The notes under the pieces: model-generated
What the model was told of the DNA's origin: nothing
Database searches by the model: none
Seen by the model: the letters and a program-made list of their open reading frames with translations, nothing else
Program-made: the position numbers and the translations under genes
IMG/VR virus record: IMGVR_UViG_3300023235_001181
Source of the DNA: a virus
Direction: 5' to 3' (one strand)
Length of the DNA stretch: 64,000 bases
Part shown: positions 5,351 through 61,064 of the stretch, piece after piece
Layout of the letters: each line of letters begins with the position of its first letter
Numbering within the stretch: position 1 is the first letter of the stretch

Positions 5351-5439
5351 CCTTTTCGGGGGGTTGAGGCATTGTGCCTCTGGTCATGTCCATCAACACT
5401 CACATGATGGCTGGAGTGTGAGTTCGAGTCTCTCGAAAC

Positions 5440-6987: not shown

Positions 6988-7001
6988 GTCTCTCTCCGTG
7001 G

Positions 7002-7918: not shown

Positions 7919-7976
7919 GGTGCTCTCCGTTCTTGGTTCATCACCTCAAACGTGAGATCAGGCCTCGAAGGTAAAC

Positions 7977-8564: not shown

Positions 8565-8591
8565 CGGAGGCTACGGGCAAATAGTCAGAGC

Positions 8592-34717: not shown

Positions 34718-34925
34718 TTTTCACGATTTCAAGTAGAAGAAGCACGGTGGCTCCTACACCTATTACCACGAACACGGCGGCGAACAGGAACCTGCCCCGT
34801 TTCTCCTTGGCGATCTCCTCATGGAACATCGCGTCGGTGATGTAGCCGTTGGCGGTGTTACCGAGCTCATCGAGCTGTCGCTTAACGGCCCGGTCCCAGC
34901 ACCCTTGGTAGCCTCGGGCTTCCAT
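34710..34925 (-). CDS. small membrane protein (C-terminal TM)
   Basis: 71 aa; FLFAAVFVVIGVGATVLLLL. Confidence 0.4.
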   Translation of the reverse strand: MEARGYQGCWDRAVKRQLDELGNTANGYITDAMFHEEIAKEKRGRFLFAAVFVVIGVGATVLLLLEIVKSL

Positions 34926-35503
34926 TATACCGTCATCATCGCGAGGATTGCCATGCCGTCACGCACGATGTCCCCGTGGTCGAAGCCGAAGATGATCTTG
35001 CCGGAGCGGATGTCCTCCTCATGGATCCAGGCGGTCCAGAAGGCGTCGTCGTCTCCCCGAGCCTTGCGGGCCTCAGCGGGCGTCACACGGCAGCAGTAGG
35101 CGAGGCTGACAACGTGGCGGCGGGGGTCACGGTCGGTGGCTCCGTACACGTCGATGAGCGTCATGAAGTCCCGCTCGAGGCCGGTCTCTTCCTTGAGCTC
35201 GCGCGGGGCACAGTCCTTGGGGTCCTCGCCGTAGTCCACGAACCCGCCCGGAGTGCAGACGAAGCCGTCGGTGTGGCAGTAGGGAGGGTTCGCACGCCCG
35301 ATGAGCAGGAAGTGTCGTCCCGCGCGGGTGGGAGCGGGGCCACGACGGTCCACCATCGTGTCGCCCAGCAGAGCGCGTCCCTCTTCCTGCCAGCCCTCCC
35401 AGTTGGGCAGGTCGTCCTCGGGGATGTCGGTAGCGACGAGGATGTCGGTGCAGAGGCTGGAGGTGCGGTAGGTCGGAGCTTCGAGCTGTTCAACGGTTGG
35501 CAT
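34925..35503 (-). CDS. Nudix hydrolase
   Basis: 192 aa; Nudix box GG.VDYGEDPKDCAPRELKEETG. Confidence 0.65.
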   Translation of the reverse strand: MPTVEQLEAPTYRTSSLCTDILVATDIPEDDLPNWEGWQEEGRALLGDTMVDRRGPAPTRAGRHFLLIGRANPPYCHTDGFVCTPGGFVDYGEDPKDCAPRELKEETGLERDFMTLIDVYGATDRDPRRHVVSLAYCCRVTPAEARKARGDDDAFWTAWIHEEDIRSGKIIFGFDHGDIVRDGMAILAMMTV

Positions 35504-39528: not shown

Positions 39529-39822
39529 TCAGAACTCGTTCCCGAATCGGCTCCGTCGGTTGCGTTGAGCCTCTTCGTGGTCACGGGCGCGCTCTGCCTT
39601 CTCTTCAGCGGCTTCGGCTGCAGCCGCTTCGACGGCCTCAAGGCCGGGCCAGTTGAGGATCTGCCCGGTAGCAGCGTTGATCTCCAGCTCGAGGTAGTCA
39701 CCGCCACCGATGCCAATGCCAGAGGGCACGTAGCCGTCATGGTCACTGCCATCGGGCCAGGTGATGCCGCACATGTCGCTCACCTTGCCGTTCACATGAA
39801 TGGTCTTGATCTCGTCGCTCAT
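39529..39822 (-). CDS. hypothetical protein
   Basis: 97 aa; start overlaps stop of upstream gene. Confidence 0.4.
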   Translation of the reverse strand: MSDEIKTIHVNGKVSDMCGITWPDGSDHDGYVPSGIGIGGGDYLELEINAATGQILNWPGLEAVEAAAAEAAEEKAERARDHEEAQRNRRSRFGNEF

Positions 39823-40550
39823 CCTCTCACCTCAGCGGGCAGTCCTGCGGGGATGCCCAGAAGGTCGCAGAGCTCACTCTCGGAGCTCACGACGTTGACG
39901 CCCCATGCTGGAAACACGTTGCGAAGGAAGTTGTTGTGGTGGATGCGCTTGAAGTCACCCACCAGGAAGCTGGGCACCACAACCTGATAGCCCATGGCGG
40001 TCGCCCGCTGCACGATGGAGCTCACCACGATGTGCGTCACGAAGCCGCCCACAACCACGCACACCTGGAGCGGGTGAAGGCCTTCATGCAAGCCCTCGAG
40101 CTGCTCCTTCAGGTCGGTCTCGAAGAAGCTGTCGAAGGTGGTCTTGGCGATTCGGTAGTCGATGTAGGGCGCAACGGCGTCCACCACTTCGGCCTCGAAG
40201 GAGTTCTCGTCAGCGTGCTCGCCGTACACGGCAAGCTCCTTCATCTGGAGCGGGTCGTTCCAGTTGTGGCTGTCGATGGTGGCGAGCTGGGGAATGTCCG
40301 CACGCTTCAACGTCTGCGCCCACACCCCGAGGTGGTCACCCATCAGAGCGAGGTTGCGCTCACCGATGTGGAGCGCCGGGTAGCCGTCACCGCGCATCTT
40401 GCTCTTCTCAGAGTCAGGGATCTCAGCAGCGGTGCAAGCGAACGCCTTGGTGGCATCTGCCCAAACCATGATGGTCATCTGCGGGCTCACCGGCCCACCC
40501 ATGGAGGGGATGTTGAGGTCGGGGAAGTACTCAGCGTTGGGCGTGGGCAT
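39819..40550 (-). CDS. isochorismatase/cysteine-hydrolase-family protein (nicotinamidase-like, tentative)
   Basis: 243 aa; VCVVVGGFVTHIVVSSIVQRATAMGYQVVV resembles isochorismatase core (GxxTHxCV). Confidence 0.4.
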   Translation of the reverse strand: MPTPNAEYFPDLNIPSMGGPVSPQMTIMVWADATKAFACTAAEIPDSEKSKMRGDGYPALHIGERNLALMGDHLGVWAQTLKRADIPQLATIDSHNWNDPLQMKELAVYGEHADENSFEAEVVDAVAPYIDYRIAKTTFDSFFETDLKEQLEGLHEGLHPLQVCVVVGGFVTHIVVSSIVQRATAMGYQVVVPSFLVGDFKRIHHNNFLRNVFPAWGVNVVSSESELCDLLGIPAGLPAEVRG

Positions 40551-40558
40551 TGTTGCTC

Positions 40559-44309: not shown

Positions 44310-44720
44310 ACTCCAATCTCCAGGTATGGGTTCTGAGGATCATTCGTGTTGGTGATGGCGATGATGCCGTCCAAATCTCTGAAAATGGTAGCCATCACTT
44401 CGTCGTAGGTGTTCCGGTTGATGATCTGGTCCCTGTGCTTGAGGCACTGACCCTCCGCGAGGAGGATGTCAGGGGTGTACCGCTCCATGGTGGAGGGCCT
44501 CCTGTCCAAGACGAGGAGCAGCCTCTTGTCCTCGTTGTTCGCCAGTTCGCGCCACCGAAGCAGGTACGCTGACCGGACCTGGTACATGGACAGCAACGAG
44601 GTCATTTCGACGTTGAGGTCTGCCCTTGCAGCCTCGGTAGCTGCAAGGGTTTGCATGGCTCCTTCTGACACCCCCTCTTCCGGAGGGGGGTCAATCTCAA
44701 GTAGGAGGTGAAGCCTATCG
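44306..44720 (-). CDS. hypothetical protein
   Basis: ORF to 44821 overlaps Prs gene; true start likely internal. Confidence 0.4.
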
Positions 44721-45701
44721 AGAGCCACCCCAGCCTCGCGGGAGGTGGTGAAGCACGGAGTCCACCAACACCGGAGCGCATCGCATGATGCGGAAGATGC
44801 CGGAGGTGCCTGGCTTGTCAAGGGTGTTCACCATCTTCACGGCGCGCGGGTGGCTGTCAAAGGAGTACACCGCGTCGAGTACGCCGTCGAACATGGCGTG
44901 CGTGTCGGCGGGGCTCTTGGTGTAGACGCCGTGGCTCAGGATCGCGCTGACGCCAATGGCACCCGCGTCCATGTAGCTCTTCGCTCCACCCACGAGGCTG
45001 CTACCGCTCCGGGTCATGTCGTCCACGAGGATCACGTACTTGCCCTTGACGTCGGCGCTGACGTTGGTCACCTCGGTGGTCCCGCCGTCGATGCGTCGCT
45101 TGCCGATGAAGGCAGGGAGCCAGCCACCCATCTCGGAGGCGATGTACTCCACACGCTTCGCACCACCGGCATCAGCGGAGCCAATCACGGCATCAGCGAC
45201 GCCCTGCTCAGCCACGATCTCGCGGATCGCGTCGAGGATGATCGGCTGTCCACGAGAGTGGATCTGGTGGGCTCGGTCTCCGAAGTAGTGGGGGATGCCC
45301 TCTGCATGGAGATCGAGGAACACGATCCGGTTGCCGTTGTAGGCCTCGGGGATGGCGCTGAGCAGCCGGGCGCGCGTCTTGGCAGTCACCACCTCACGCG
45401 TCTTGGGCTTGGCGCGCTCCATGGTGCTGTACCCGAAGTAGGGGATCACGATGGTCAGAGAGCGAGCTCCGTAGGCCACAATCGCGCAGCAAGCGTCGAA
45501 CATCTCCATCGTGTCGTTGTCGTTGATGGTGCCGCCGAGGTACACCACGTCACGGTCACGCACTGAGGTTTCGATGCGCTGGTACCGCTCCCCGTCAGGG
45601 AAGGTCTTGATCAGCACCTCGCCCCGGTCGAAGCAGGGGTCTACGTCAACAAACGTAGGGGCGAGGTACTCGTAGCTTCGGGTAGCAAAGAGAAGAGGCA
45701 C
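44715..45701 (-). CDS. ribose-phosphate pyrophosphokinase (PRPP synthetase) family protein; could be an ADPR-PP-synthetase-type Prs homolog
   Basis: 328 aa; N-domain GEVLIKTFPDGE...RDVVYLGG, DLHAEGI, PRPP loop VILVDDMTRSGSS. Confidence 0.75.
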   Translation of the reverse strand: MPLLFATRSYEYLAPTFVDVDPCFDRGEVLIKTFPDGERYQRIETSVRDRDVVYLGGTINDNDTMEMFDACCAIVAYGARSLTIVIPYFGYSTMERAKPKTREVVTAKTRARLLSAIPEAYNGNRIVFLDLHAEGIPHYFGDRAHQIHSRGQPIILDAIREIVAEQGVADAVIGSADAGGAKRVEYIASEMGGWLPAFIGKRRIDGGTTEVTNVSADVKGKYVILVDDMTRSGSSLVGGAKSYMDAGAIGVSAILSHGVYTKSPADTHAMFDGVLDAVYSFDSHPRAVKMVNTLDKPGTSGIFRIMRCAPVLVDSVLHHLPRGWGGSR

Positions 45702-49239: not shown

Positions 49240-49452
49240 CTAAGCCGAGCCGTACTTGTACGACTTGAACATCTGGTACTCGGTGTCCTCAATGAAGCCA
49301 AGCGCCCCGAGGGCCTTCTTGTCCTCGTCACTCACCGAGTCGTACTCCACGCCCACCTGCATCACGTCGTGTTCACAGTGAGTGGGCCACTTCGTGTCGG
49401 TGTACTTCCCAAAGATGGTGAAGGCAGCGATCAGTTCTTCGCATCCGGTCAT
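49240..49452 (-). CDS. small hypothetical protein
   Basis: 70 aa. Confidence 0.35.
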   Translation of the reverse strand: MTGCEELIAAFTIFGKYTDTKWPTHCEHDVMQVGVEYDSVSDEDKKALGALGFIEDTEYQMFKSYKYGSA

Positions 49453-50270
49453 GGCGAGATCTCCTCAGTCACTCGGTTCACCTCTGCTACGAGCAGGTCA
49501 GTGTCACAGGCGTAGAGGCCTGCGGAGCTGAAGCTGCCCACTTCGAGGATGTGGTAGTTGCCCGCCTTGGTCTGACACATGTCGAGCACCCAAACGTGGT
49601 CAGGCTCGTACTTCTGCTCCAAGCAGTAGTCCACGAACTCCTGGCCACGTCGTAGGGCGTCAGCCGTGGCAAGCTCGCGGGGGTGGTTGTACCCGCGTCG
49701 ATACAGAGAGCCGGTGACAACGCGCCCCTGGGCCACGAAGAAACGCCACTCCACCTCTACGTTGATGGGTCGAGCGACAACCACCATCGTTTCGGGCTTC
49801 ACCACGTCGTCGTAGAAGCCCATCAGCTCGATGTCCCTGTCCCACGTCTCCCTCTTCAACAACTGTCCGCTGAAGAGCTTCCGGTTGCTGTCAGGGCGCA
49901 CGAACAGGCACCCGTCCTCGCCCAACGCGGCGAAGAGCATCTCCTTGTGTGCAGTCAGGAGGCCGAACGGCATGAAGATGTGGTCGCGGTTGAGCAGACG
50001 GTCCCTGATGCGCGGGTAGTAGAAGGAGCACATGAGCTGGTCGGCGTTCTCGTAGACCGTCCATCCTTGCTCCCGCGCCATTTCCACTGCCTGAAGAGAG
50101 CCGTGGAACACCATCGGGTAGACGCCGTTCGTGGCGGCGAGCATCTCGAACCCTCCGTCCATCGGCATGAACTTGGGAGCGTAAACACTCCACCCCAATG
50201 CCTCAGCGGAGGCAGCGAGCTTGCTCTCGTACTCAGGCTCGATGCCCGTTTCGATCACCCAACCGGGCAT
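49449..50270 (-). CDS. hypothetical protein, possibly ATP-grasp-fold
   Basis: 273 aa; alternating beta-like segments (LFVRPDS, VVVARPINVEVEWRFFV, WVLDMCQTKAGNYHILEV) weakly resemble ATP-grasp central/C domains. Confidence 0.3.
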   Translation of the reverse strand: MPGWVIETGIEPEYESKLAASAEALGWSVYAPKFMPMDGGFEMLAATNGVYPMVFHGSLQAVEMAREQGWTVYENADQLMCSFYYPRIRDRLLNRDHIFMPFGLLTAHKEMLFAALGEDGCLFVRPDSNRKLFSGQLLKRETWDRDIELMGFYDDVVKPETMVVVARPINVEVEWRFFVAQGRVVTGSLYRRGYNHPRELATADALRRGQEFVDYCLEQKYEPDHVWVLDMCQTKAGNYHILEVGSFSSAGLYACDTDLLVAEVNRVTEEISP

Positions 50271-52544: not shown

Positions 52545-54038
52545 TCACCTCATTGTCGGGAACAGAATCACGTCCCGAATTGATTGTGTGTCTGTCAACA
52601 GCATCACGAGCCGGTCGATGCCAATCCCCTCACCGGAGGTGGGAGGCATACCGAAGCTCAACGCGTCGATGTAGTCCTGGTCGAAGTACATGGCTTCATC
52701 GTCCCCGCGTGCCTTGGCAGCAGCCTGGGCCTGGAAACGAGCAGCCTGCTCAACGGGGTCGTTCAGCTCTTGGAAGCCGTTGGCGATTTCCATACCGGCG
52801 ATGTAGAGCTCGAAGCGGTCTGCTACCTCTGGGTCATCAGCAGATGCTCGAGAGAGTGGGCTGATGTCCAAGGGGAATCCGGTCACGAAGGTCGGCTGGA
52901 TCAGCTTGTCCTCAACGTACTCGTCGAAGTAGAGCTGGAACCACCGCCCGATGGTCCGGGGGAGCTTGGTAGCGTCCGGGTGGTCCTGTACCCACCTCGA
53001 GCGCATCTCGGGCATGGAGAAGGGGTCGTTGATGCCCGCGTGCTCCATGATCAGGTCGGCCATGCTCACGCGCCTGAAGGTGGTCAGGTCAAGCTCGTGC
53101 CCGTCGTAGGTGCAGACGTCCATCGGAAGGAACTCGCCAACCCGGCAGGCTTCCTCGTAGATGACGCGGTTGTTGGCACCACGGATGATGGCTTCGGTGG
53201 TGTCCATCAGGTCAGCCGGTGTGGCGTGGGCCTGATAGAACTCCAGCATGGTGAACTCGGGGTTGTGCGTCCCGTCCACTCCCTCGTTCCGGAAGTTGCG
53301 GTTCAGCTCGAACACTCGCTCGTAGCCACCCACGATGAGCCTCTTGAGGTAGAGCTCAGGGGCGATGCGTAGGTAGAGGTCCTTGTCGAGAGCGTTGTGG
53401 TGCGTCACGAATGGTCGTGCGTTCGCACCGCCTGGGAGCGTCTGCATCATCGGCGTCTCCACCTCCATGAACCGATGGTCTTCAAAGTACCTCCGGATGT
53501 AGGATACGATGGTGCTGCGCGCACGGAACCGGTCGCGAGTGTCTTGGCTCACGATGAGGTCGAGGTACCGCTGACGGCGCTGCTGCTCCACGTCGGTGAA
53601 CCCCGCGTGCTTGTCCGGCAGGCTCTTGATGCACTTGGAGTAGAGCGCAAGGCTGTCCACCTTGAGGCTCAGGTCACCGCGTCGGGTACGGATGAGCTGC
53701 GCTTCTGCGTACACCCAGTCGCCGATGTCCAACTTCTTCCACACGTCGGCGTACATGACGGGGCCGATGCCCGCACGGCGCACGAACAACTGCATCCGGC
53801 TTTCGCCATCCTCGATGAAGGCGAAGCCAATCTTGCCCATCTCGTTCTTCTGGACGATGCGTCCGGCCACACGGTAGACGGTGGTCTGCGCCTCCAACTC
53901 CTCCGCGCTCAGATCAGCACCGATGCGCAAGATCTCGAGCAGCCGGTGGCTGAGGTCCTTGGAGACGGGATAGGGATCTACGCCTTCAGCGCGTAGTGCG
54001 TCCAACTTTTCCAGCCGTGCTGGTTCAAATTCGCTCAC
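52545..54038 (-). CDS. lysS: lysyl-tRNA synthetase, class II
   Basis: 497 aa; motif 2 FRNEG..HNPEFTMLEFY, motif 3 GEGIGIDRLVMLLTDTQSIRDVILFPTMR, N-terminal OB anticodon-binding domain. Confidence 0.85.
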   Translation of the reverse strand: MSEFEPARLEKLDALRAEGVDPYPVSKDLSHRLLEILRIGADLSAEELEAQTTVYRVAGRIVQKNEMGKIGFAFIEDGESRMQLFVRRAGIGPVMYADVWKKLDIGDWVYAEAQLIRTRRGDLSLKVDSLALYSKCIKSLPDKHAGFTDVEQQRRQRYLDLIVSQDTRDRFRARSTIVSYIRRYFEDHRFMEVETPMMQTLPGGANARPFVTHHNALDKDLYLRIAPELYLKRLIVGGYERVFELNRNFRNEGVDGTHNPEFTMLEFYQAHATPADLMDTTEAIIRGANNRVIYEEACRVGEFLPMDVCTYDGHELDLTTFRRVSMADLIMEHAGINDPFSMPEMRSRWVQDHPDATKLPRTIGRWFQLYFDEYVEDKLIQPTFVTGFPLDISPLSRASADDPEVADRFELYIAGMEIANGFQELNDPVEQAARFQAQAAAKARGDDEAMYFDQDYIDALSFGMPPTSGEGIGIDRLVMLLTDTQSIRDVILFPTMR

Positions 54039-54164: not shown

Positions 54165-55736
54165 TTAGGCTGCCGCAGCCACCGCTTCCGCGCGGGCTCG
54201 GGTACACGTCTCGATCAAGCTCAGGGTGATGCCGTCCACGGCGGGTCGGTGTTCGAAGCCGTCACGTCGCGCCGAGTCACCGGGTCCGTACACACGCCAG
54301 CCCTTCGGGAGGTTGCCGTACTGACACACCATCGTAGCGGGTCCGTGTGAGGGGTGAGCAGCGTTCTCGCGCACGGCGAGTACCGGGATGCCGGGGAGGC
54401 TCTGCTTCCCGCTCCAACCCTCTTCCAGCTCATCGCCGAACTTCATGGTCGGTCCGTACTTGGACGTCCAGGCGAGCTTGTAAACCATGCTCACCAAGCC
54501 ACGTCGGTAGCCGGTGGGCTCCGGGCGGTCGATGAAGTAGCCGCCCGCGCCAAACAGCGTCACCTCTTCGGGGTAGTCAACCTCGATGCGGAGCGCCTCG
54601 TACCGTGCAACGTCCTTGTCGTCGATGCCGTCTTCAAATACCCACGGGCGGGGTCGGATGCCGCGTGCCTTGATCTCGCTCACGATGTAGCGGAACTGCT
54701 CCTCAAGGGAGCCGCTGTCGGGTCGCATCCCGTCGTTCCGGTCCGGAAACTCTTCCATGAGCTTCAGGGCGGTCGGGATGCCCACCTTCATCGTGTCGTT
54801 GGTGTCGAGCAGCATGATCACGAGGGGCATTGCGGCGATGTGTGCGCGGAAGGCGCGTTCGTCGTTGCCACCGTGGCGCATGATGCCCTCATGGCCCAGC
54901 GTGCCAACTGCCTTGATGTCCAGCACGTAGGCACCGTAGGCGTTGGAGGTCAGCGTGAAGCCGAGGTCCTTCAGAGCCTTGAGCGCGATGAGGTGCTGCT
55001 CCATGCAGGTTGCGGCGCGGAGGCCAACCTCGAAGATGCGGTTCGGGCTCACGCCGGAGGCCAGCATCTTGATGCCCTGCAACTGCACCGCGTTGTAGTA
55101 GCTGAGCTCGTCCACGGTGATGCCGTTTTCGATGTCCCGCAGCTCCTGTCGGAAGTCGGCATCGCCGAAGTCCCTGCCCTTGTGGGCACCGAGGATCGCC
55201 TCCATGGTGAGCTCCTTCTGGCGCTCACAGGTCACGGTGCGGATGGTCTCGAGGAAGGCGGGCATCGTGTCGCCCTCGCGGGCCTTGATGTAGGCGGTCG
55301 CTACCTGCATCTGGTAGCTGAAGCGTCCCGAAACCAACGGCTCGAGCCAGCTTGCGATGGCCTGAGGAGCTCGCACGGTAGCCACGGGCTCACGGGGAGC
55401 AGCGTACTCGCCAAAGGGTGTCGCGTAGAGCACCTCAAGGCTGGAGCCGTCCACGGAGTCCCACAGCATCTTCTCGGTCACGTTGAAGCCGAAGTGCTGC
55501 AGTAGCGCGCACTCTTCCTTCACGGTCGCTGAGGTGGGGTTGGGGATCATCTCGCGGATCGCCGTCTCGGGATCCACAGGCATGAACATGAGCCCGCCGC
55601 GTCGGAAGCTCAGATAGAACACTTCCTTCTCTTCGGGGCGTCCGCCAGCCATCATGGGCCACTTGTAGCCGTCCGATCCGAGGGTGCTTTCGCGCCAGGA
55701 TCGCTTGCCTGCAAGTAGTTGTCGTAGAATGCTCAT
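54165..55736 (-). CDS. nadV: nicotinamide phosphoribosyltransferase family protein (NadV/Nampt-like; alternatively a Namat-type transferase)
   Basis: 523 aa; GSDGYKWPM (cf. TDSYKVTH), GIRPDSGSLEE (cf. RPDSGNP), FGAGGYF (cf. FGSGGGL). Confidence 0.75.
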   Translation of the reverse strand: MSILRQLLAGKRSWRESTLGSDGYKWPMMAGGRPEEKEVFYLSFRRGGLMFMPVDPETAIREMIPNPTSATVKEECALLQHFGFNVTEKMLWDSVDGSSLEVLYATPFGEYAAPREPVATVRAPQAIASWLEPLVSGRFSYQMQVATAYIKAREGDTMPAFLETIRTVTCERQKELTMEAILGAHKGRDFGDADFRQELRDIENGITVDELSYYNAVQLQGIKMLASGVSPNRIFEVGLRAATCMEQHLIALKALKDLGFTLTSNAYGAYVLDIKAVGTLGHEGIMRHGGNDERAFRAHIAAMPLVIMLLDTNDTMKVGIPTALKLMEEFPDRNDGMRPDSGSLEEQFRYIVSEIKARGIRPRPWVFEDGIDDKDVARYEALRIEVDYPEEVTLFGAGGYFIDRPEPTGYRRGLVSMVYKLAWTSKYGPTMKFGDELEEGWSGKQSLPGIPVLAVRENAAHPSHGPATMVCQYGNLPKGWRVYGPGDSARRDGFEHRPAVDGITLSLIETCTRARAEAVAAAA

Positions 55737-55764
55737 AATTCCTCGGGTGTCCAGTTACTCCATC

Positions 55765-55794
55765 AACGACGGATACCCCGAGGAAGTTAGAGAG
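55765..55794 (-). promoter_or_regulatory. bipartite promoter-like motif variant (CTCTCTAACT-N16-CGTTGA) upstream of nadV-like gene
   Basis: minus-sense gttCTCTCTAACTtcctcggggtatccgtCGTTGAtggag...gaggaattATG. Confidence 0.4.
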
Positions 55795-55812
55795 AACTTG
55801 TAGGTTTCGAAC

Positions 55813-56733
55813 TCAGCGGCGGGTACCAGTACGCACCATCAGGTTGAGGGTCTTCCCGCTCACTTTGAAGGTGGCTGTCTGTCCCCATGCGAACTCCAGC
55901 CGGTCAGATTCGATGCCGTCCCCGAAGATGACTCCACCTTCCTGCATACGCGACGTCACCTTGAGAGGAGCATCCGGCTCCACATACCCTTGCTGGATTG
56001 AAACGCCTGAGAAGGGGCTGTCCCAAGCCTCTCTCACCTGAAAGATCAGCACTCCCTCTTCGGGATCTGGGAAGGGCAGAGGGTTCCGGCGCTGTGATGC
56101 GACGGAGCTTGCCCAACCCGTACAACCCGTACCGGAGCTGATGATCATACCAGAGGAGCTCTGGTACTCGGTGTGCTGCTCGTAGGCGATGTCGTACTTG
56201 GCGCTCTGATGGGAGTGGTGTCCGCAGAACAGCTCGTTGAGGGCGATGATCTTCCGTCCCTCCTCTTGCGTTTCGTCGTCCTTGATCTCCACCTCCACCA
56301 TTGAGCGGCGCTGAAGCTTGGCGGTGTTGTTCTTGAGGTAGCCGTAGAGCAAGGGGATCTCCCGCTCACGCCACACCATCATCTTCGCCTTGTAGGAGGT
56401 GTCGGGGTTGATCCCGGCGACAGTCTGCCCGTCCAGGTACTTGGCTACGTTCGGGACCAAGCCGTCCTGCCCCACAGCAACGATGATGTCACCGGGCTGA
56501 AAGACAAACCTGTCCAGATCGCTCCGGAGGCAGCTCGTCTTTCGCCAGGTGTGTGGTACATCGCGGAGGGCACGGGCAGCAACTTTCAAGGTGACGGCGT
56601 GCATCCGTTCCACCTTGTCCATCGACTGCCCCATCAGCTCAAGCCTGAACCTCGCCATCTGAACGGTCCCGTGCTCTACGAGCAGAGATTCGTACTCGGT
56701 GGTTCTGCGAACCACTACTACTCGAGGTTCCAC
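55813..56733 (-). CDS. NAD kinase-like protein
   Basis: 306 aa; GDIIVAVGQDGLV (GGDG-type), IALNELF (NE/D motif), SGMIISSGTGCTGWASS (cf. [20 protein letters not shown]). Confidence 0.55.
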   Translation of the reverse strand: MEPRVVVVRRTTEYESLLVEHGTVQMARFRLELMGQSMDKVERMHAVTLKVAARALRDVPHTWRKTSCLRSDLDRFVFQPGDIIVAVGQDGLVPNVAKYLDGQTVAGINPDTSYKAKMMVWREREIPLLYGYLKNNTAKLQRRSMVEVEIKDDETQEEGRKIIALNELFCGHHSHQSAKYDIAYEQHTEYQSSSGMIISSGTGCTGWASSVASQRRNPLPFPDPEEGVLIFQVREAWDSPFSGVSIQQGYVEPDAPLKVTSRMQEGGVIFGDGIESDRLEFAWGQTATFKVSGKTLNLMVRTGTRR

Positions 56734-56742: not shown

Positions 56743-57861
56743 CTACTTGCTGAGCTGCTGCACAGCTTCCAGCAGTCCGCCACCAATGGTCACGGAGCTG
56801 AGGTTGCTGAGGCCTGCGGGGATGCCCTGGATGGCCAGTGCGAGTGCGGCTTCACCCTTCTCCTCGAAGGCTGCGAGCTGAGCCTCAACCTCGGCCACGC
56901 GGGCTTCACCGAGCGCCTCTTCCTGAGCGACGGTCTGAGCGTCCACGGAGATCCGAATGGCGAGTGCCTGCTCGTCGGAAGCAGCCTTGTTCTCGAGGCG
57001 CTGGGCCTCGGCGTTGGCGGCGTCCTCGAGCTGACGTGCGGAGGTGAGCTCCTGAGCCCTGAGGTTGGCCTCAGTCTTCTTGCGCCCCTGCTCCAACTCG
57101 GCGTCCGTGCGGATGCTCACAACAGCAGCGGAGCTGGCTTCCGAGGCCTCACTGTTCACGCGGTCCTGAGCGATCAGGGCCTCGCGCTGCTTGGCGAGCA
57201 GAAGCTTGTTGTTCAGTGCCGCTTCCTCGATGGCACGCTCCTTCTCAGTAGCGTTGGCACGCCGGTCGAAGGTGGCCTCGTCAGCTTCCTGCTTGAGGCG
57301 CTCGTTGGTCTTGGTCTGGAGGGCCTGAGCAACGTCCCGGTTGGGCTTGATGCTGGTCACGCTTGCGGCGAACACCTCGATGCCGATGTCCAGCGCCTGG
57401 AGGGCGGCAAGCACAACGTCGGAGATGGCCTTGGGGTCATCCACAAGCAGCGGCTCGAGCTCCTGCTGGGAGATGTAGCTCCACGCCGCCTGCTGCGCCG
57501 TGTTGGTCAGCACCGTGGCGATGTCCGTGGAAGGGTCGCCCAGCGGAGTGCCGGTGTCGGTGTCCACAGCGAAGTTGAAGCGGGAGGCGATGTTGAGCGC
57601 CGCTTCAACTCCTACGCGCCACTGGCCCGTCGCGCTGACGGTGACGTCCTGGAAGTCCTTGGTGCGGCAGTTGAAGGTCAGCGGGACGGTCTGGTCCACG
57701 ACGGGTACCTCAGAGAGGCTCGTGCCCTTGGTCCAGAACCACAGCCAGAAGCTGAGGCCGGTGCCGCTCTTGGTGACCTTGCCACCTGCAGATGCGATCA
57801 GAAAAGTGTGAGCCTCGCCACGCACGTTGCGTAGAGGCCCGAAGGTTGAGATGGTTGCCAT
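56743..57861 (-). CDS. SPFH/band-7 (flotillin-like) protein
   Basis: 372 aa; N-terminal SPFH-like region then ~200-aa A/E/Q-rich coiled coil with EA repeats. Confidence 0.65.
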   Translation of the reverse strand: MATISTFGPLRNVRGEAHTFLIASAGGKVTKSGTGLSFWLWFWTKGTSLSEVPVVDQTVPLTFNCRTKDFQDVTVSATGQWRVGVEAALNIASRFNFAVDTDTGTPLGDPSTDIATVLTNTAQQAAWSYISQQELEPLLVDDPKAISDVVLAALQALDIGIEVFAASVTSIKPNRDVAQALQTKTNERLKQEADEATFDRRANATEKERAIEEAALNNKLLLAKQREALIAQDRVNSEASEASSAAVVSIRTDAELEQGRKKTEANLRAQELTSARQLEDAANAEAQRLENKAASDEQALAIRISVDAQTVAQEEALGEARVAEVEAQLAAFEEKGEAALALAIQGIPAGLSNLSSVTIGGGLLEAVQQLSK

Positions 57862-57958
57862 CTTGTGTCTCCGTGATTGGGCTTGTCGCCCTTGGGTTCA
57901 TACCCTCCTACTGTTCACGGTTGAAGGCGGGATAGGTTCCCGCCGACGCACATACTTT

Positions 57959-58177
57959 TCAAACGCCCTTGATGTCCCGTAGTCGCTTGAGCTCAAACGG
58001 GCTCGCGTGTTCGGTCCAATGGGTCCACGGGTCCACACCCAGTTCCTTGCCGACGTACTCGATGTTCTCGAGCTCCTTGCCCAGATCCGTTTCCCCGACG
58101 CCATGTGGGTCGTCGGAGAAGAGGTCGAGGTAGAGCTCGAACAGCTCGGCAACGAATTCCTGGGTGCGTGGTGTCAC
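57959..58177 (-). CDS. small hypothetical protein
   Basis: 72 aa. Confidence 0.35.
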   Translation of the reverse strand: MTPRTQEFVAELFELYLDLFSDDPHGVGETDLGKELENIEYVGKELGVDPWTHWTEHASPFELKRLRDIKGV

Positions 58178-58818
58178 TCGGCAGTCTCCCGCGCGGCGAG
58201 CATTCCCTTGCCGTTCCAGAAGGTCACGGCAGCACGCAGGGCAGCTTCAAACTGCACGGCGTCCATGTTGGTGCTCGAGCCGCCGTCGAGGCCGAAGTGG
58301 TTCGCCATGAGCGTACCCGGCGTCATCGGCTGGTCGCCTTCGGTCAGCTTGCCGAGAAGTGTCACCACCTCCCACTCGCTGCCGTTCAGCTCGTCCAGAC
58401 GCTCCGTGTCCTCTTCGAGAACCGAGCGGTTGTAGAGCACCACATCCACCCACATCGCCGCAGAAGGGATGCGCGGGCTTCCCAGCTTGTTGATGCGAGC
58501 CACCTTGGAGCTCTTGCGGGGCTTCTCACCCTCGCGCCGAGCCTTGTACTCCACCACGAAGCGGTCGTCCGGGGTGATGTCCACCACGGGGCAGGTGAAG
58601 AAGGTCTCGTCGAACAGCGCGAACACGTTCAGCGGTACGATGATCACACCGTCCCGGTAGCCCTCACGCTGAGCCGCCCATTCGAGCTGCACTGCCTCCA
58701 CAAGGATGTCCCACCGCTGGGTGCCCGCGTCGTCCAAGCACAGGAACTCCGTGAAAGAGGTTCCGGTGCGGTGGTGGTTCTTGCAGAAGCCACTGACGGT
58801 GATATCTTGTTTCGGCAT
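58174..58818 (-). CDS. hypothetical protein
   Basis: likely ATG MPKQDIT (ORF to 58860). Confidence 0.45.
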   Translation of the reverse strand: MPKQDITVSGFCKNHHRTGTSFTEFLCLDDAGTQRWDILVEAVQLEWAAQREGYRDGVIIVPLNVFALFDETFFTCPVVDITPDDRFVVEYKARREGEKPRKSSKVARINKLGSPRIPSAAMWVDVVLYNRSVLEEDTERLDELNGSEWEVVTLLGKLTEGDQPMTPGTLMANHFGLDGGSSTNMDAVQFEAALRAAVTFWNGKGMLAARETAE

Positions 58819-58858
58819 TTGGGTCCGTTCCTTGGGTCGTTGTCCGTAGTGCTCCCCC

Positions 58859-58887
58859 AACGCATCACGCGGGGGAGCACTCAGAGG
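58859..58887 (-). promoter_or_regulatory. bipartite promoter-like motif (CCTCTGAGT-N14-TGCGTTG) overlapping a 10-bp-stem hairpin GTGCTCCCCC/GGGGGAGCAC
   Basis: minus-sense gagaaaaCCTCTGAGTgctcccccgcgtgaTGCGTTGggggagcac; lies between clpP stop and next gene. Confidence 0.45.
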
Positions 58888-59676: not shown

Positions 59677-60402
59677 TCAGCCCGTCGCCCGAGCCTTGTC
59701 GCCCAACACGCTGTCGGCCGTCACGAAGGTTGCGCCCGCATCACCGAGGGTGCGGAGGCTGAAGTTCATGCCACCCTCGTCACCGCTCACGGGAGGCACA
59801 TCGAGCGCCACACAGGCGTCGGTCACCACTTCCACGGTGTAGCCACGCTCGAGCAGTCCGGTCACGAAGCCGTCAACGCAGAAGCCGCCGAGGCAGTAGC
59901 CAAACACGCGGAAGATCACGTTGTCCTTGCCGCCCATCTCTTCCACGAGGTGTGCGATGTACGCCTCAGCGATGGGGTTGCTGAAGGCGCTGTACACCTC
60001 CTTCTCGAAGTAGAGGCCGACGCCCGCAAGAGCCTCGGTCGTGAACTCCGTGGAGCCGTACACGCGGGGGCCGTTCCCAGCCTTGTCCTCGCCGATGCAG
60101 CCGTCGCCACCCCAGCTCATGGGGAGGAAGCGGAAGCGGGGAGGCAGCGTGCCGTCGAGCTTCAGCCAGTCCCAGGTGCCCTTGACGGCGTGGGTGGGGA
60201 AGATGCCACCGTTGTCGATGAACTCCCAAGCGTCGTAGCTGTGGCTGTCCACGCAGCCAATGAGGGGCTCGTTGGTGGCAAGGGCGCGAGCCACAAGGCC
60301 ACGAATGCGGTCGTTGACGGTGTCGTCAGCGACGGAGAGGTTGCCGTCCTTGTGTGCGAAGGCGTTGGCGGTGTCGACGTCGACGTTGATGTAGCGGGCC
60401 AT
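59677..60402 (-). CDS. nicotinamidase/isochorismatase-family hydrolase (PncA-like)
   Basis: 241 aa; N-terminal INVDVDTANAF, KEVYSAFSN, VFGYCLGGFCVDGFVTGLLERGYTVEVVTDACVA (catalytic Cys region). Confidence 0.6.
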   Translation of the reverse strand: MARYINVDVDTANAFAHKDGNLSVADDTVNDRIRGLVARALATNEPLIGCVDSHSYDAWEFIDNGGIFPTHAVKGTWDWLKLDGTLPPRFRFLPMSWGGDGCIGEDKAGNGPRVYGSTEFTTEALAGVGLYFEKEVYSAFSNPIAEAYIAHLVEEMGGKDNVIFRVFGYCLGGFCVDGFVTGLLERGYTVEVVTDACVALDVPPVSGDEGGMNFSLRTLGDAGATFVTADSVLGDKARATG

Positions 60403-60404: not shown

Positions 60405-61064
60405 TCAGGTCTCCTTGGAGAAGCGGTAGGTTGTTCGTCGGCCTTTGCTCTGCTCAGTCACCGGTTCGATGACGCCCAGCGCAGTAGCCTTCTTTCTCAA
60501 GTTCGAGCTGTCTTCCGCCTTGCCCGTGATGTGTCCCATCAGGTCGCGGTAGTCGCTCATGTTGAAGTTCATGTAGAGGAAGCCCGCAACCACGTCCGGG
60601 TCGTAGCGGTGCTTCTTGAGGAATTCCTGAGCGAACTCAAGGATGCCCCGATGGTCGAATGCAAGGTCCATGTTCAGCGCAGCGGCGAGTGGCGTCCACC
60701 CGTCGTGTCCCCTGAATACGTGGGAGATCGGGCAGATGTGCGCCACGCTGAGCACCTTGTCGCGGGTGTCCCGGTCGAAGCCGTCAAAGACGTGCATCTG
60801 TACCGGTTGAACCTGCGCGTGTGCCTCGGGCACGTAGCGTCGTAGGGAGCGGCGTACCGCATCAAAGAGGAGTTCGTTGGGCTTCACAAACGCGCCGGGG
60901 AGCGCCAACTGGCCCATCGCCGGAGGGTTGCGCCGCCTGATGAGCTTCACGCGGAGCTCAGGGTCTACCACTACAACGTCCACCGCCAGAGGCGGGTTCT
61001 TGTACTGCGAACGGTCGTAGTCCGCAAAGTACTCTTCGTCGGTGATGTGGGTTTCGTCGGGCAC
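60405..61064 (-). CDS. NrtR-like protein: degenerate Nudix domain + C-terminal winged-HTH
   Basis: 219 aa; Nudix-like GQLALPGAFVKPNELLFDAVRRSLRRYV with degenerate REx2EE; C-terminal NLRKKATALGVIEPV...GRRTTYRF matches NrtR wHTH pattern; 3-nt gap to PncA-like gene. Confidence 0.5.
   Translation of the reverse strand: MPDETHITDEEYFADYDRSQYKNPPLAVDVVVVDPELRVKLIRRRNPPAMGQLALPGAFVKPNELLFDAVRRSLRRYVPEAHAQVQPVQMHVFDGFDRDTRDKVLSVAHICPISHVFRGHDGWTPLAAALNMDLAFDHRGILEFAQEFLKKHRYDPDVVAGFLYMNFNMSDYRDLMGHITGKAEDSSNLRKKATALGVIEPVTEQSKGRRTTYRFSKET

What the first reader, a model, noticed from the sequence alone, without database searches (positions are those of the whole stretch)
54165..56733. NadV/Nampt-family phosphoribosyltransferase plus NAD-kinase-like gene: NAD+ salvage or reconstitution module
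A 523-aa Nampt-family enzyme is followed directly by a 306-aa protein with NAD-kinase-type GGDG/NE/D and C-terminal Gly-rich motifs. Phage NadV-type enzymes have been implicated in rebuilding NAD+ after depletion by Thoeris, DSR, SIR2 or SEFIR-type defences. An adjacent NAD kinase would extend this to NADP. Sequence alone cannot decide whether the Nampt homolog uses PRPP (NadV) or ADPR-pyrophosphate (a Namat-type reaction).
Basis: partly seen in the sequence, partly recalled or inferred. Interest (0 to 1): 0.7.

Follow-up and report, generated by a model that had tools for sequence, protein, structure and literature searches.

The report
Phage nicotinate salvage gene beside SPFH–NAD-kinase cassette
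Two neighbouring genes in a probable jumbo phage are real but belong to two separate units: a nicotinate-type (not nicotinamide-type) NAD salvage enzyme of a kind already reported in jumbo phages, and an NAD-kinase-like gene whose conserved partner is an upstream SPFH scaffold gene, a widespread bacterial pair I found described nowhere.

Summary
Both ORFs exist at the stated coordinates (minus strand, 523 aa and 306 aa). The interpretation needs correcting in two ways.

1. The 523-aa protein is not NadV/Nampt or Namat. Its family profile scores 90-102 bits against nicotinate PRTases and 27-34 bits against mammalian Nampt. It keeps the NAPRT phospho-histidine and lacks the Namat clamp motif. 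In 19 of 24 related phage loci NadE lies next to it (directly after it in 15). Isochorismatase-family genes and, in six loci, a NadD-like gene lie nearby. This is the nicotinate (Preiss-Handler) route already reported for 'NAD-jumbo phages'.

2. The 306-aa protein has an NAD-kinase fold closest to mitochondrial NADK2. Its conserved partner is the SPFH/Band-7 gene 9 nt upstream, not the PRTase:
- The SPFH gene lies directly upstream in 73 of 74 informative bacterial loci from several phyla (median gap 4 nt).
- Two fused proteins exist.
- An NrtR-like gene with a palindromic operator often precedes the pair.
- A PRTase lies nearby in 1 of 80 loci.

The cassette matched none of 50,697 deposited phages and no IMG/VR contig. 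It sits beside the PRTase only in this sub-lineage. I found no paper on an SPFH–kinase pairing. All activities are inferred.

The parts
54165..55736 (-). Nicotinate-phosphoribosyltransferase-like (PncB/NAPRT-type) type II PRTase, 523 aa. It belongs to a divergent clade shared by huge phages and Myxococcota.
   Evidence: - NCBIfam NAPRTase TIGR01513: E=1e-24, 87 bits, below the 297-bit cut-off.
- Pfam NAPRTase: 20.3 bits against a cut-off of 20.8.
- Family profile against the PDB: NAPRT 2f7f 102 bits, human NAPRT 90 bits, Xanthomonas-type Nampt 50 bits, mammalian Nampt 27-34 bits.
- H282, in GTLGHE, aligns with human NAPRT His213 and is invariant in the family.
- No Namat GSx6TRD motif.
55737..55812 (-). 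Intergenic region with a promoter-like motif, CTCTAACTT at 55784-55792, and a GAGGA ribosome-binding site before the PRTase ATG.
   Evidence: - The motif CTCTRASTT has 8 exact hits in the window, all on the coding strand.
- 1.76 are expected by chance, and 0 of 100 shuffles reached 8.
- The sequence was read.
55813..56733 (-). NADK2/NADK3-like NAD(H)-kinase-fold protein, 306 aa, GTG start.
   Evidence: - AF2 model with pLDDT 93.5.
- Best Foldseek PDB match is human NADK2 7r4j (E=1e-19, TM 0.74), followed by bacterial NAD kinases.
- Family profile against NADK2: E=5e-15.
- Motifs GQDG, ALNELF, SSSG...TGTGxTGW and FGDGIESD are present.
- No Pfam hit, and only 22 bits against NCBIfam NAD kinase models.
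56743..57861 (-). SPFH/Band-7 protein, 372 aa, with no transmembrane helix and a long coiled coil. It is the conserved operon partner of the kinase-like gene, with its stop 9 nt before the kinase start.
   Evidence: - Pfam Band_7 E=3e-15.
- AF2 model with pLDDT 83.7.
- Foldseek matches flotillin, erlin, HflK/C, stomatin, prohibitin, QmcA and the vault protein.
- Directly upstream on the same strand in 73 of 74 bacterial loci.
- Median gap to the kinase-like gene is 4 nt.
- SPFH-kinase fusion proteins P0296 and P0340 exist.
58174..58860 (-). DUF3228 protein, 228 aa. It travels with the SPFH-kinase pair in the closest relative but not in bacterial cassettes.
   Evidence: - Pfam DUF3228 E=1.5e-11.
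- L087 has ClpP-DUF3228-p72-Band7-NADKL.
- Absent from all 80 bacterial loci.
59677..60402 (-). Isochorismatase-family protein, 241 aa, with nicotinamidase-like motifs. It is the likely PncA and is paired with the NrtR-like gene.
   Evidence: - Pfam Isochorismatase E=5e-8.
- NCBIfam nicotinamidase PRK11609: E=6.5e-4, 19.5 bits, far below the 174-bit cut-off.
- The only PDB match, at E=0.07, is a nicotinamidase. It aligns the segment VDSH...PTHAVKGTW with the nicotinamidase's KDWH...PEHCVKNTW.
- The pair is conserved with the NrtR-like gene in L003 and L091.
60405..61064 (-). NrtR-like Nudix plus winged-helix protein, 219 aa, with a degenerate Nudix box. It is probably an ADPR-sensing regulator.
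   Evidence: - PDB 3gz5 (a MutT/nudix protein that I recall as Shewanella oneidensis NrtR): E=3e-15.
- Pfam NUDIX E=2.9e-5 and NrtR_WHD E=9e-4.
- No canonical Nudix box.
44715..45701 (-). Prs-like ribose-phosphate pyrophosphokinase, 328 aa. It is the likely PRPP supplier for the PRTase.
   Evidence: - PDB PRPS2: E=2e-26.
- Pfam Pribosyltran_N.
- phrog_619.
- PRPS-type motifs DLH, DAGGAKR, KRR and DDMTRSGSS are present.
- Conserved in relative L090.
39819..40550 (-). Second isochorismatase-family gene, 243 aa, part of the conserved island.
   Evidence: - Pfam Isochorismatase E=4e-15.
- 60% identical to the L003 homologue.
34925..35503 (-). Nudix hydrolase, 192 aa, with an intact catalytic box. 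It is part of the conserved island.
   Evidence: - Pfam NUDIX E=1.5e-16.
- The box reads GFVDYGEDPKDCAPRELKEETG.
- Syntenic in L003, L090 and L091.

Best explanation
The window comes from a probable jumbo phage with an NAD-metabolism island. Two separate units happen to lie side by side.

Unit A, the 523-aa gene:
- It is a PncB/NAPRT-type nicotinate phosphoribosyltransferase.
- A phage nicotinamidase-like enzyme (59677-60402) would convert nicotinamide to nicotinate.
- The PRTase would join nicotinate to PRPP, made by the phage Prs-like enzyme, to give NaMN.
- NaMN would be taken to NAD+ by NadD and NadE. Related phages encode these. This window does not, so here they must come from the host or from elsewhere in the genome.
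- This is the Preiss-Handler branch of phage NAD+ replenishment. It could support phage metabolism or offset NAD+-depleting defences, which release nicotinamide.

Unit B, the 306-aa gene:
- It is an NADK2/NADK3-type NAD(H) kinase homologue.
- It is co-translated with an SPFH scaffold protein that probably forms a flotillin/HflK-like ring or cage and binds or localises the kinase.
- In bacteria this pair is a self-contained operon, often preceded by an NrtR-like regulator gene with a palindromic operator upstream, so it may respond to NAD/ADP-ribose status.
- One phage sub-lineage captured the pair and inserted it, with a DUF3228 gene, between clpP and the PRTase gene, without the bacterial operator.
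- There it most likely converts part of the NAD(H) pool into NADP(H).

Shown here: gene identities at family or fold level, gene-neighbourhood conservation, coupling, fusions, and the operator motif.
Inferred: every enzymatic activity, the SPFH-kinase physical interaction, ADPR-responsive regulation, and any role against defence systems.
For: PRTase is of the nicotinate type:
- NAPRT models match and NadV models do not.
- PDB hits are NAPRTs only by single sequence.
- By profile, NAPRT scores 90-102 bits, mammalian Nampt 27-34 bits, and 9ke8 (labelled Nampt) 16 bits.
- H282 aligns with human NAPRT His213.
- The Namat motif is absent.

PRTase context:
- NadE lies next to the PRTase in 4 of 4 closer relatives.
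- NadE directly follows it in 15 of 20 IMG/VR huge-phage loci.
- A recurring 295-aa gene with a weak isochorismatase match is present in 15 of 20 loci, and a NadD-like gene in 6 of 20.
- Jumbo-phage pncB-nadD-nadE clusters are already reported (PMC11662467).

Kinase-like gene:
- NAD-kinase fold and motifs.
- The S...T-G-W signature matches the NADK2/NADK3 type described in PMC3535332.

SPFH coupling:
- 73 of 74 loci.
- Median gap of 4 nt, and 57 of 78 gaps are 15 nt or less or overlap.
- Fusion proteins P0296 and P0340.
- No other conserved neighbour.

NrtR link:
- An NrtR-like gene lies upstream in 35 of 80 loci.
- The CATATATG-type palindrome lies upstream of it in 20 of 31 loci, against a background of 0.005 per 210 nt.

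Insertion history:
- L087/L088 share ClpP-DUF3228-p72-SPFH-kinase-...-PRTase.
- L090 has ClpP directly followed by the PRTase.

Phage origin:
- An identical protein sits on a 257-kb contig.
- PHROG hits.
- The best matches of the R2K ATP-grasp and RlaP genes are huge and jumbo phages.
Against: - No activity was measured.
- The PRTase scores far below the curated NAPRT cut-offs (87 versus 297 bits), so its substrate could differ.
- The window has no NadE or NadD, so the route is incomplete as seen here.
- The kinase-like protein has GQDG instead of GGDG and fails all curated NAD kinase thresholds. Its substrate could be something other than NAD(H).
- No structural phage gene lies in the window, so 'phage' rests on gene content and relatives.
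- The SPFH-kinase interaction is inferred from gene arrangement only, and the two fusions could be indel artefacts.
- The link to defence systems is untested. PADLOC gave no hit for any of these proteins.
Confidence: 0.6

Rival explanations
1. The 523-aa protein is a NadV/Nampt (or Namat) enzyme that rebuilds NAD+ from nicotinamide, and the adjacent NAD kinase forms a dedicated two-gene NAD+/NADP+ reconstitution module.
For: - The two genes are adjacent and on the same strand.
- There is a weak phrog_448 'nicotinamide phosphoribosyl transferase' hit, E=9e-5.
- A Prs-like gene that could in principle be an Adps lies in the window.
- The NAD theme of the neighbourhood is real.
Against: - The profile clearly favours NAPRT over Nampt or Namat.
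- The Namat motif is absent.
- There is no NMN adenylyltransferase. Relatives carry NadE, which only the deamidated route needs.
- The kinase-like gene pairs with SPFH, not with a PRTase.
- The Prs-like gene is 8.5 kb away and keeps PRPS-type loops.
Confidence: 0.07
2. The SPFH-kinase pair is a host-derived passenger with a membrane or stress function unrelated to the phage's NAD salvage. Its position beside the PRTase is an accident of insertion.
For: - The cassette is self-contained and cellular in origin.
- It is absent from 50,697 phage genomes and from IMG/VR.
- Most relatives of this phage group lack it.
- It has lost the bacterial operator.
Against: - It is retained with all family-invariant residues in two phage relatives that are only 77% identical.
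- It was inserted exactly within an NAD island.
- A second phage-like 211-kb contig also carries the pair.
- In bacteria it is linked to an NrtR-like regulator gene. So a function related to NAD is the simpler reading.
Confidence: 0.18
3. The 306-aa protein has an NAD-kinase fold but phosphorylates another substrate at an SPFH microdomain, for example a lipid, ADP-ribose, NaAD or a signalling nucleotide.
For: - The GGDG motif is altered to GxDG.
- Curated NAD kinase thresholds are not met.
- Genera that carry the cassette, such as Sphingomonas and Mesorhizobium, are expected to have a canonical NadK already. That is my own knowledge and was not tested here.
- SPFH partners are usually associated with membranes.
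Against: - All top structural matches are NAD kinases, and none is a lipid kinase.
- NADK2, the closest relative, is a proven NAD kinase with the same substituted residues.
- The link to an NrtR-like gene points to pyridine-nucleotide metabolism.
Confidence: 0.12
4. A deamidated analogue of NARP1. The Prs-like enzyme makes ADPR-PP and the NAPRT-like enzyme joins it to nicotinate to give NaAD directly. NadE then amidates NaAD, so NadD is bypassed.
For: - The closer relatives encode PncA-like, PRTase, NadE and Prs-like genes, but no NadD was seen within 10 kb.
- The Prs-like protein has a divergent substrate loop and a conserved C-terminal extension, HHLPRGWG.
Against: - Six of 20 huge-phage relatives do carry a NadD-like gene near the PRTase.
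- There is no adenine-clamp motif.
- The Prs-like protein does not show the C-terminal truncation described as the Adps signature, since it is 328 aa long. The Prs-like gene is not adjacent to the PRTase.
- Host NadD is expected to be universal. That is my own knowledge.
Confidence: 0.03

Closest known systems
Jumbo-phage Preiss-Handler NAD+ clusters (pncB-nadD-nadE; 'NAD-jumbo phages', Microbiome 2024, PMC11662467)
   Same: - A phage-encoded NAPRT-type PRTase sits in an NAD island with nicotinamidase-like, Prs-like and Nudix genes.
- Relatives have NadE directly downstream, and some have a NadD-like gene.
   Different: - This window lacks NadE and NadD.
- The PRTase clade is very divergent, scoring below the curated NAPRT cut-offs.
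- An NrtR-like regulator is part of the island.
- The cited paper does not mention NAD kinase.
NARP1 (Adps + Namat), NARP2 (NadV + NMNAT) and NARP3 (PnuC + NadR) phage NAD+ reconstitution pathways
   Same: Same general logic: a phage encodes enzymes that rebuild NAD+ from breakdown products or precursors.
   Different: - Different enzymes and a different route. This one uses nicotinate rather than nicotinamide, NMN or nicotinamide riboside.
- No Namat motif, no NMNAT, and no PnuC or NadR were found.
- No counter-defence activity has been shown for this route.
Mitochondrial NAD kinase 2 (NADK2/C5orf33) and plant NADK3
   Same: - Best sequence and structure match.
- The family has Ser and Trp where canonical NAD kinases have Asp and Tyr, as NADK2 does. 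The Thr is kept, as in NADK3.
   Different: - It is a bacterial or phage protein of about 300 aa without the NADK2 insert.
- It has GxDG instead of GGDG.
- It is always encoded after an SPFH gene.
SPFH-partner operons (HflK/C-FtsH, QmcA-YbbJ/NfeD, flotillin)
   Same: - An SPFH domain is followed by a long coiled coil.
- It is tightly coupled in an operon to a client protein.
- Its fold matches the cage-forming SPFH proteins.
   Different: - The client is a soluble NAD-kinase-fold enzyme rather than a protease or an NfeD protein.
- The SPFH protein has no transmembrane anchor.
- The operon is often headed by an NrtR-like regulator gene.
NrtR regulons of bacterial NAD metabolism (my recollection of Rodionov et al. 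2008; structures 3gz5, 3gz6 and 3gz8)
   Same: - A Nudix domain with a degenerate catalytic box plus a winged-helix domain.
- The gene is placed at the head of NAD-related genes.
- A palindromic operator overlaps a promoter-like box.
   Different: - As far as I know, and in the searches, the SPFH plus NADK2-like pair is not a listed NrtR regulon member.
- The CATATATG-type operator is inferred here, and DNA binding has not been demonstrated.
- The phage NrtR-like gene is paired with the isochorismatase-family gene rather than with the SPFH-kinase pair.

Membership tests
NadV / Nampt (nicotinamide PRTase) | Sequence membership: a significant full-length match to Nampt catalytic-domain models or structures | tested here: not met
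   - Mammalian Nampt chains score 27-34 bits, with the best stretch in the N-terminal domain only. NAPRTs score 90-102 bits.
- No Nampt hit by single sequence at E<=1.
- Only a weak phrog_448 hit, E=9e-5.
NadV / Nampt (nicotinamide PRTase) | Genomic partnership with an NMN adenylyltransferase (NadM, NadR or NatV) | tested here: not met
   - No adenylyltransferase was found in the window, either by tblastn with the phage NadD-like genes or among the ORFs scanned against Pfam.
- Relatives carry NadE, and some carry a NadD-like gene.
Namat (nicotinamide ADPR-transferase, NARP1) | Selectivity-clamp helix motif GSXΦXΦXΦTRD on a Nampt-like core that is about 36% identical to Nampt | tested here: not met
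   - The regex GS.{6}TRD is absent. The equivalent segment reads GAGGYFIDRPEPTGYRRG.
- The motif definition comes from PMC12774641.
- There is no Nampt-level identity.
Namat (nicotinamide ADPR-transferase, NARP1) | An adjacent Adps gene (PRPS-like, lacking the C-terminal alpha11-alpha12 module) | tested here: not met
   - The Prs-like gene is 8.5 kb away (44715-45701).
- It is 328 aa long and keeps PRPS-type loops.
- Whether its C-terminal region matches alpha11-alpha12 was not resolved.
NAPRT / PncB (nicotinate PRTase) | Sequence membership at the curated threshold | tested here: inconclusive
   - It is the best-matching family in every library, but the scores fall below the cut-offs: TIGR01513 87 bits against 297, and Pfam PF04095 20.3 against 20.8.
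- The profile matches 2f7f at E=3e-28.
- Myxococcota homologues are named NAPRT by NCBI and JGI.
NAPRT / PncB (nicotinate PRTase) | The conserved autophosphorylated histidine in the GT-x-A/G-H motif | tested here: met
   - H282 in GTLGHE aligns with His213 of human NAPRT (GTLAHS) in the alignment.
- It is invariant in the 32-member alignment.
- The role of His213 is my own knowledge.
NAPRT / PncB (nicotinate PRTase) | Pathway context: nicotinamidase upstream, NadD and NadE downstream | tested here: met
   - Met in relatives: NadE lies next to the PRTase in 19 of 24 loci, an isochorismatase-family gene is present in most, and a NadD-like gene in 6.
- In the window itself only the isochorismatase-family genes and the Prs-like gene are present. 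NadE and NadD are absent.
NAPRT / PncB (nicotinate PRTase) | Catalysis of nicotinate + PRPP -> NaMN | not testable with these tools
   Needs an enzyme assay.
NAD kinase (NadK / NADK2) | Two-domain NAD-kinase fold | tested here: met
   - AF2 model with pLDDT 93.5.
- All 50 top Foldseek PDB hits are NAD or NADH kinases, with NADK2 best at TM 0.74.
NAD kinase (NadK / NADK2) | GGDG motif | tested here: inconclusive
   - The window has GQDG.
- Across the family the motif reads G-x-D-G, with G88 and G91 invariant, D90 in at least 90% of members and the second position variable.
- The catalytic Asp is kept, but the diglycine is not.
NAD kinase (NadK / NADK2) | NE/D motif, and the Gly-rich NAD-binding motif | tested here: met
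   - N166 and E167 are invariant.
- SSSG and TGTGxTGW are invariant, with the NADK2/NADK3-type Ser and Trp substitutions.
NAD kinase (NadK / NADK2) | Sequence membership at the curated threshold | tested here: not met
   - No Pfam NAD_kinase hit.
- NCBIfam NAD kinase models give at most 22 bits against cut-offs of 211-316.
NAD kinase (NadK / NADK2) | Phosphorylation of NAD+ or NADH | not testable with these tools
   Needs an enzyme assay.
SPFH / Band 7 | SPFH domain above the Pfam threshold, followed by a coiled coil, with the fold of ring or cage formers | tested here: met
   - Pfam Band_7: 57 bits against a cut-off of 23.6.
- Model and Foldseek matches to flotillin, HflK/C, stomatin, prohibitin and erlin.
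- Oligomerisation was not tested.
NrtR (Nudix-related transcriptional regulator) | A Nudix-fold domain with a degenerate catalytic box, plus a C-terminal winged helix | tested here: met
   - 3gz5: E=3e-15 over residues 5-193.
- No Nudix box.
- The WHD match is weak: PF21906, E=9e-4, below its cut-off.
- DNA and ADPR binding were not tested.

The most novel reading that the evidence does not exclude
The SPFH plus NADK2-like pair is an unrecognised, widespread bacterial system. It is often headed by an NrtR-like gene with a CATATATG-type operator. A flotillin/HflK-like cage would scaffold or gate an NAD(H) kinase in response to NAD/ADP-ribose status. Jumbo phages would have captured it as an 'NADP arm' of pyridine-nucleotide reconstitution. 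Its role there would be to rebuild NADP(H), or to shelter the pool as NADP, during infection of hosts that deplete NAD+. If so, this would be a virus-encoded NAD kinase of a type I found in no phage database or paper, and a new kind of SPFH client.
Probability: 0.25. Interest if true: 0.75.

Novelty: new variant of a known kind. Interest (0 to 1): 0.55.

Why it matters
**The PRTase half is ordinary.** It adds a divergent member to the Preiss-Handler gene sets already reported in jumbo phages. It also corrects an easy mis-annotation of NAPRT as NadV or Namat.

**The kinase half is more interesting.**
- It exposes a tightly coupled SPFH–NAD-kinase-like operon present in at least 562 species-level genomes across several phyla.
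- I found no description of it in the searchable literature.
- It links the poorly understood bacterial SPFH scaffolds to a defined soluble enzyme and to an NrtR-like regulator, which gives SPFH biology a tractable client.

**Its presence in phage.** The pair also occurs in a phage NAD island. This suggests that phages may manage the NADP(H) pool as well as NAD+. That is relevant to the current work on NAD+-depleting immunity and phage counter-measures.

Tried and rejected
- **Megablast of 9 kb against deposited phages:** no match.
- **tblastn of the kinase-like protein against phages:** no match.
- **Single-sequence scans of IMG/VR for both proteins:** nothing.
- **IMG/VR scan with the kinase family alignment:** nothing.
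- **PADLOC defence models for nine island proteins:** no meaningful hit. A known defence system is therefore not supported.
- **NARP3 (PnuC + NadR):** read and rejected as irrelevant.
- **NadE and NadD in the window:** searched with phage homologues, and none found.
- **Literature on SPFH plus NAD kinase, or on a phage NAD kinase:** nothing relevant.
- **The bacterial CATATATG-type operator in the window:** absent.
- **Sigma-70 promoter and terminator scan of 53.9-61.3 kb:** uninformative, at about chance level.
- **L113 as a second phage lineage:** tested against PHROGs, and only the Ro60 gene matched. L113 remains 'phage-like, unproven'.
- **My own crude ORF caller:** it mis-assigned a few high-GC genes to the wrong strand. 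Examples are 39936-40697(+) in place of 39819-40550(-), and the antisense 'cluster 1'. I corrected these using synteny and the ORF listing.

Full report
**Observation**

- The two ORFs are real: 54165-55736 (minus strand, 523 aa, ATG) and 55813-56733 (minus strand, 306 aa, GTG).
- Nearly every gene in the 64-kb window is on the minus strand. GC3 is about 0.8 and GC2 about 0.4, the pattern expected of real genes in 60% GC DNA.
- In transcription order the 306-aa gene comes first, and the 523-aa gene follows after 76 nt.
- An identical copy of the 523-aa protein's sequence occurs on metagenomic contigs of up to 257 kb. A 113-kb ENA contig is 99.99% identical to the window over 19.8 kb.

**What kind of genome this is**

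- No close relative exists among 50,697 deposited phage genomes at the DNA level.
- Gene content is phage-like:
  - an R2K ATP-grasp protein (phrog_7313, E=2e-40);
  - an RlaP-type nucleotidyltransferase (phrog_388, E=7e-51);
  - a polynucleotide kinase, ClpP, LysRS, a T5orf172 gene and many ORFans.
- The best phage matches of the ATP-grasp and RlaP proteins are uncultured huge phages of 462-485 kb and Caulobacter jumbo phages.
- No tRNA gene and no virion gene lie in the window, so 'jumbo phage' is a strong inference but not proven.

**The 523-aa protein is a nicotinate-type PRTase**

- Pfam gives only NAPRTase, just below threshold.
- NCBIfam gives ten NAPRTase models, the best at E=1e-24, and no NadV model.
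- Against PDB sequences, the single protein hits only nicotinate PRTases.
- A profile of 32 family members separates the families clearly:

| PDB target | Bits |
|---|---|
| Enterococcus NAPRT 2f7f | 102 |
| Human NAPRT 4yub | 90 |
| 'Pre-B cell enhancing factor related protein' 8igz/7yqo (probably the Xanthomonas Nampt) | 50 |
| Mammalian Nampt (best stretch N-terminal) | 27-34 |
| 9ke8 (labelled Nampt) | 16 |

- His282, in GTLGHE, aligns with His213 of human NAPRT, which I recall as the autophosphorylated residue. It is invariant in the family.
- The Namat signature helix GSXΦXΦXΦTRD, defined in PMC12774641, is absent.
- The scores fall far below the curated NAPRT cut-offs, so this is a divergent clade. 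Its members are metagenomic phage-like contigs (40-60% identical), Myxococcota chromosomal genes (37-39%, named NAPRT by NCBI and JGI) and 20 IMG/VR contigs, many of 370-620 kb.

**Context confirms the nicotinate route**

- In four closer relatives, an NAD synthase (NadE) gene follows the PRTase, either next or after one small ORF. The same loci carry isochorismatase-family genes, an NrtR-like gene, a Nudix gene and, in one of them, a Prs-like gene.
- In 15 of 20 IMG/VR loci NadE directly follows the PRTase (Pfam NAD_synthase E=6e-13). A recurring 295-aa gene with a weak isochorismatase match (E=4e-5) is present in 15. A NadD-type adenylyltransferase (CTP_transf_like, E=3e-9) is present in 6.
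- NadE is needed only for the deamidated route.
- Jumbo-phage pncB-nadD-nadE clusters have already been described bioinformatically (PMC11662467).
- The window keeps these parts of the island:

| Gene | Coordinates | Evidence |
|---|---|---|
| NrtR-like | 60405-61064 | 3gz5 E=3e-15; no Nudix box |
| Isochorismatase-family, with nicotinamidase-like metal-binding, Lys and Cys motifs | 59677-60402 | |
| Prs-like with PRPS-type loops | 44715-45701 | |
| Second isochorismatase-family gene | 39819-40550 | |
| Nudix hydrolase with an intact box | 34925-35503 | |

- The window has no NadE or NadD. Where relatives have NadE, it carries LysRS and other genes.

**The 306-aa protein is an NADK2-like kinase homologue**

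- It has no Pfam hit and only weak NCBIfam NAD kinase hits.
- It nevertheless matches human mitochondrial NADK2 by sequence: E=1e-5 alone and 5e-15 as a profile.
- A high-confidence AlphaFold model (pLDDT 93.5) matches NADK2 best (TM 0.74). All top hits are NAD or NADH kinases.
- Family-invariant motifs are G-x-D-G (GQDG here), ALNELF, SSSG...TGTGxTGW and FGDGIE.D.
- The Ser and Trp that replace the canonical Asp and Tyr are the NADK2-type substitutions described in PMC3535332.
- The family has 379 clusters at 50% identity with E<=1e-30. It occurs in at least 562 species-level genomes. These come from Myxococcota, Acidobacteriota, Planctomycetota, Alphaproteobacteria, Actinomycetota and other phyla.

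**Its true partner is the SPFH gene**

- In Sandaracinus the gene order is NrtR-like, Band_7, kinase-like.
- Across 80 genomic loci, a Band_7/SPFH gene lies directly upstream on the same strand in 73 of the 74 loci that have enough upstream sequence.
- An NrtR-like gene precedes the SPFH gene in 35 of 80 loci.
- A PRTase-like match occurs in 1 of 80 loci.
- No other neighbour recurs.
- The gap between the SPFH stop and the kinase start has a median of 4 nt. In 57 of 78 pairs the gap is 15 nt or less, or the genes overlap.
- Two proteins are SPFH-kinase fusions, though indel artefacts cannot be excluded.
- Upstream of the NrtR-like gene, a (G)CATATATG(C) palindrome occurs in 20 of 31 loci. It is often duplicated and overlaps a TTGACA box. 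The background rate is 0.005 per 210 nt.
- The window has the same SPFH-then-kinase pair with a 9-nt gap.
- The SPFH protein (Pfam E=3e-15) has no transmembrane helix. It is modelled as an SPFH domain followed by long helices, and it matches flotillin, erlin, HflK/C, stomatin, prohibitin, QmcA and the vault protein.

**How the two units came together**

- The closest relative (kinase 77%, PRTase 72% identical) has ClpP-DUF3228-p72-SPFH-kinase, then two small ORFs, then the PRTase.
- A more distant relative has ClpP directly followed by the PRTase.
- None of the 20 IMG/VR loci, nor the three other closer relatives, has the pair.
- The DUF3228-SPFH-kinase block is therefore an insertion into an older NAD island in one high-GC sub-lineage.
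- Its nearest cellular relatives (52-58% identical) include MAGs labelled Myxococcota, Bradymonadia and Nannocystaceae.
- The phage copy lacks the bacterial operator.
- The PRTase has its own copy of a motif, CTCTRASTT, that recurs upstream of eight genes in the window (8 hits against 1.8 expected).
- A second phage-like 211-kb contig also carries the pair, next to a Ro60 gene and an NAD-dependent ligase. Its viral nature is unproven.

**Mechanism (inferred)**

Unit A:
- Nicotinamidase would convert nicotinamide to nicotinate.
- The NAPRT-type enzyme would join nicotinate to PRPP from the phage Prs-like enzyme, giving NaMN.
- Host or otherwise encoded NadD and NadE would complete NAD+.

Unit B:
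- An SPFH ring or cage would bind or localise an NAD(H) kinase, which converts NAD(H) to NADP(H).
- In bacteria, the NrtR-like gene and its operator suggest control by NAD/ADPR status.
- In the phage, the pair would top up NADP(H) during infection.

No activity, interaction or defence phenotype has been tested.

**Comparison and novelty**

- The PRTase half is a new member of a known kind.
- NARP1, NARP2 and NARP3 use other enzymes.
- For the SPFH–NADK2-like operon and its presence in a phage:
  - I found no description in the literature;
  - the PADLOC defence models give no match;
  - deposited phage genomes and IMG/VR contain no copy.
- Overall this is a new variant of known kinds, of moderate interest.

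Noticed in passing
window 21669, 26516, 30750, 33437, 48775, 49225, 55784, 59658 (all minus strand): A promoter-like motif, CTCT(G/A)A(C/G)TT, recurs upstream of genes and is usually followed about 20 nt later by a TATA-like element. There are 8 exact hits, all on the coding strand, against 1.76 expected. It is probably a phage-specific promoter class.
   Followed up: partly
window 52545-54038 (LysRS); 61845-62801 and about 63519-63923 (LPG_synthase_C-like); 62794-63537 (methyltransferase): The element encodes a full lysyl-tRNA synthetase and, about 8 kb away, two MprF-type C-terminal (lysyl-phosphatidylglycerol synthase-like) domain proteins flanking a methyltransferase. The same block occurs in relatives L001 and L091. 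This could be an aminoacyl-tRNA-dependent modification system.
   Followed up: no
bacterial loci L009, L022, L023, L033, L041, L070, L074 and others, within 200 nt upstream of the NrtR-like gene: A (G)CATATATG(C) palindrome lies upstream of the nrtR-SPFH-kinase operon in bacteria from different phyla. It is often duplicated and overlaps a TTGACA box. It occurs in 20 of 31 loci against a background of 0.005 per 210 nt, and is a candidate NrtR operator.
   Followed up: partly
P0296 (574 aa) and P0340 (654 aa), from the representatives search: These single polypeptides have an N-terminal Band_7/SPFH domain and a C-terminal NADK2-like domain. They are either natural fusions or frameshift artefacts of the overlapping gene pair.
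   Followed up: partly
L113 (211-kb contig), 5004-8897: A Ro60/TROVE RNA-binding protein gene sits directly upstream of another SPFH-kinase pair in an ORFan-rich contig that also encodes an NAD-dependent DNA ligase. This may be a second jumbo-phage lineage carrying the cassette.
   Followed up: partly
window 49449-50270 and 50328-52541: An R2K-clade ATP-grasp protein (phrog_7313) lies next to a 737-aa protein of unknown function (phrog_33592, E=1e-11). The pair sits between LysRS and the RlaP/Prs genes, at the place where relatives have NadE.
   Followed up: no
window 5440-6987: A 515-aa protein fuses a CoaB-like DFP domain (phosphopantothenate-cysteine ligase type) to a class II aldolase/adducin domain. 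A similar 420-aa gene recurs near the PRTase in several IMG/VR huge-phage loci (cluster 18). It may have a role in coenzyme A metabolism.
   Followed up: no
window 44715-45701 and L090 6012-7016: The Prs-like proteins of this phage group share a non-canonical substrate loop, DDM(T/I)RSGSS, and a conserved C-terminal extension ending in HHLPRGWG. Both differ from textbook PRPS and from the Adps residues described in the literature.
   Followed up: partly
IMG/VR loci L093-L112, 3-9 kb downstream of the PRTase: After PRTase-NadE-isochorismatase, many huge-phage loci carry a conserved run of three genes: a VWA-like protein of about 250 aa, a PP2C-like protein of about 300 aa and an unannotated protein of about 580 aa. 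The window's 41096-41842 gene (weak VWA_4 match) occupies the same syntenic position but did not cluster with that family.
   Followed up: no
window 57926-57944 (minus strand): A GC-rich hairpin, GGCGGGAACCTATCCCGCC, lies in the 97-nt gap upstream of the SPFH gene. It has no clear T-tract, and no CTCTRASTT motif lies in this gap. How the SPFH-kinase pair is transcribed is unresolved.
   Followed up: no
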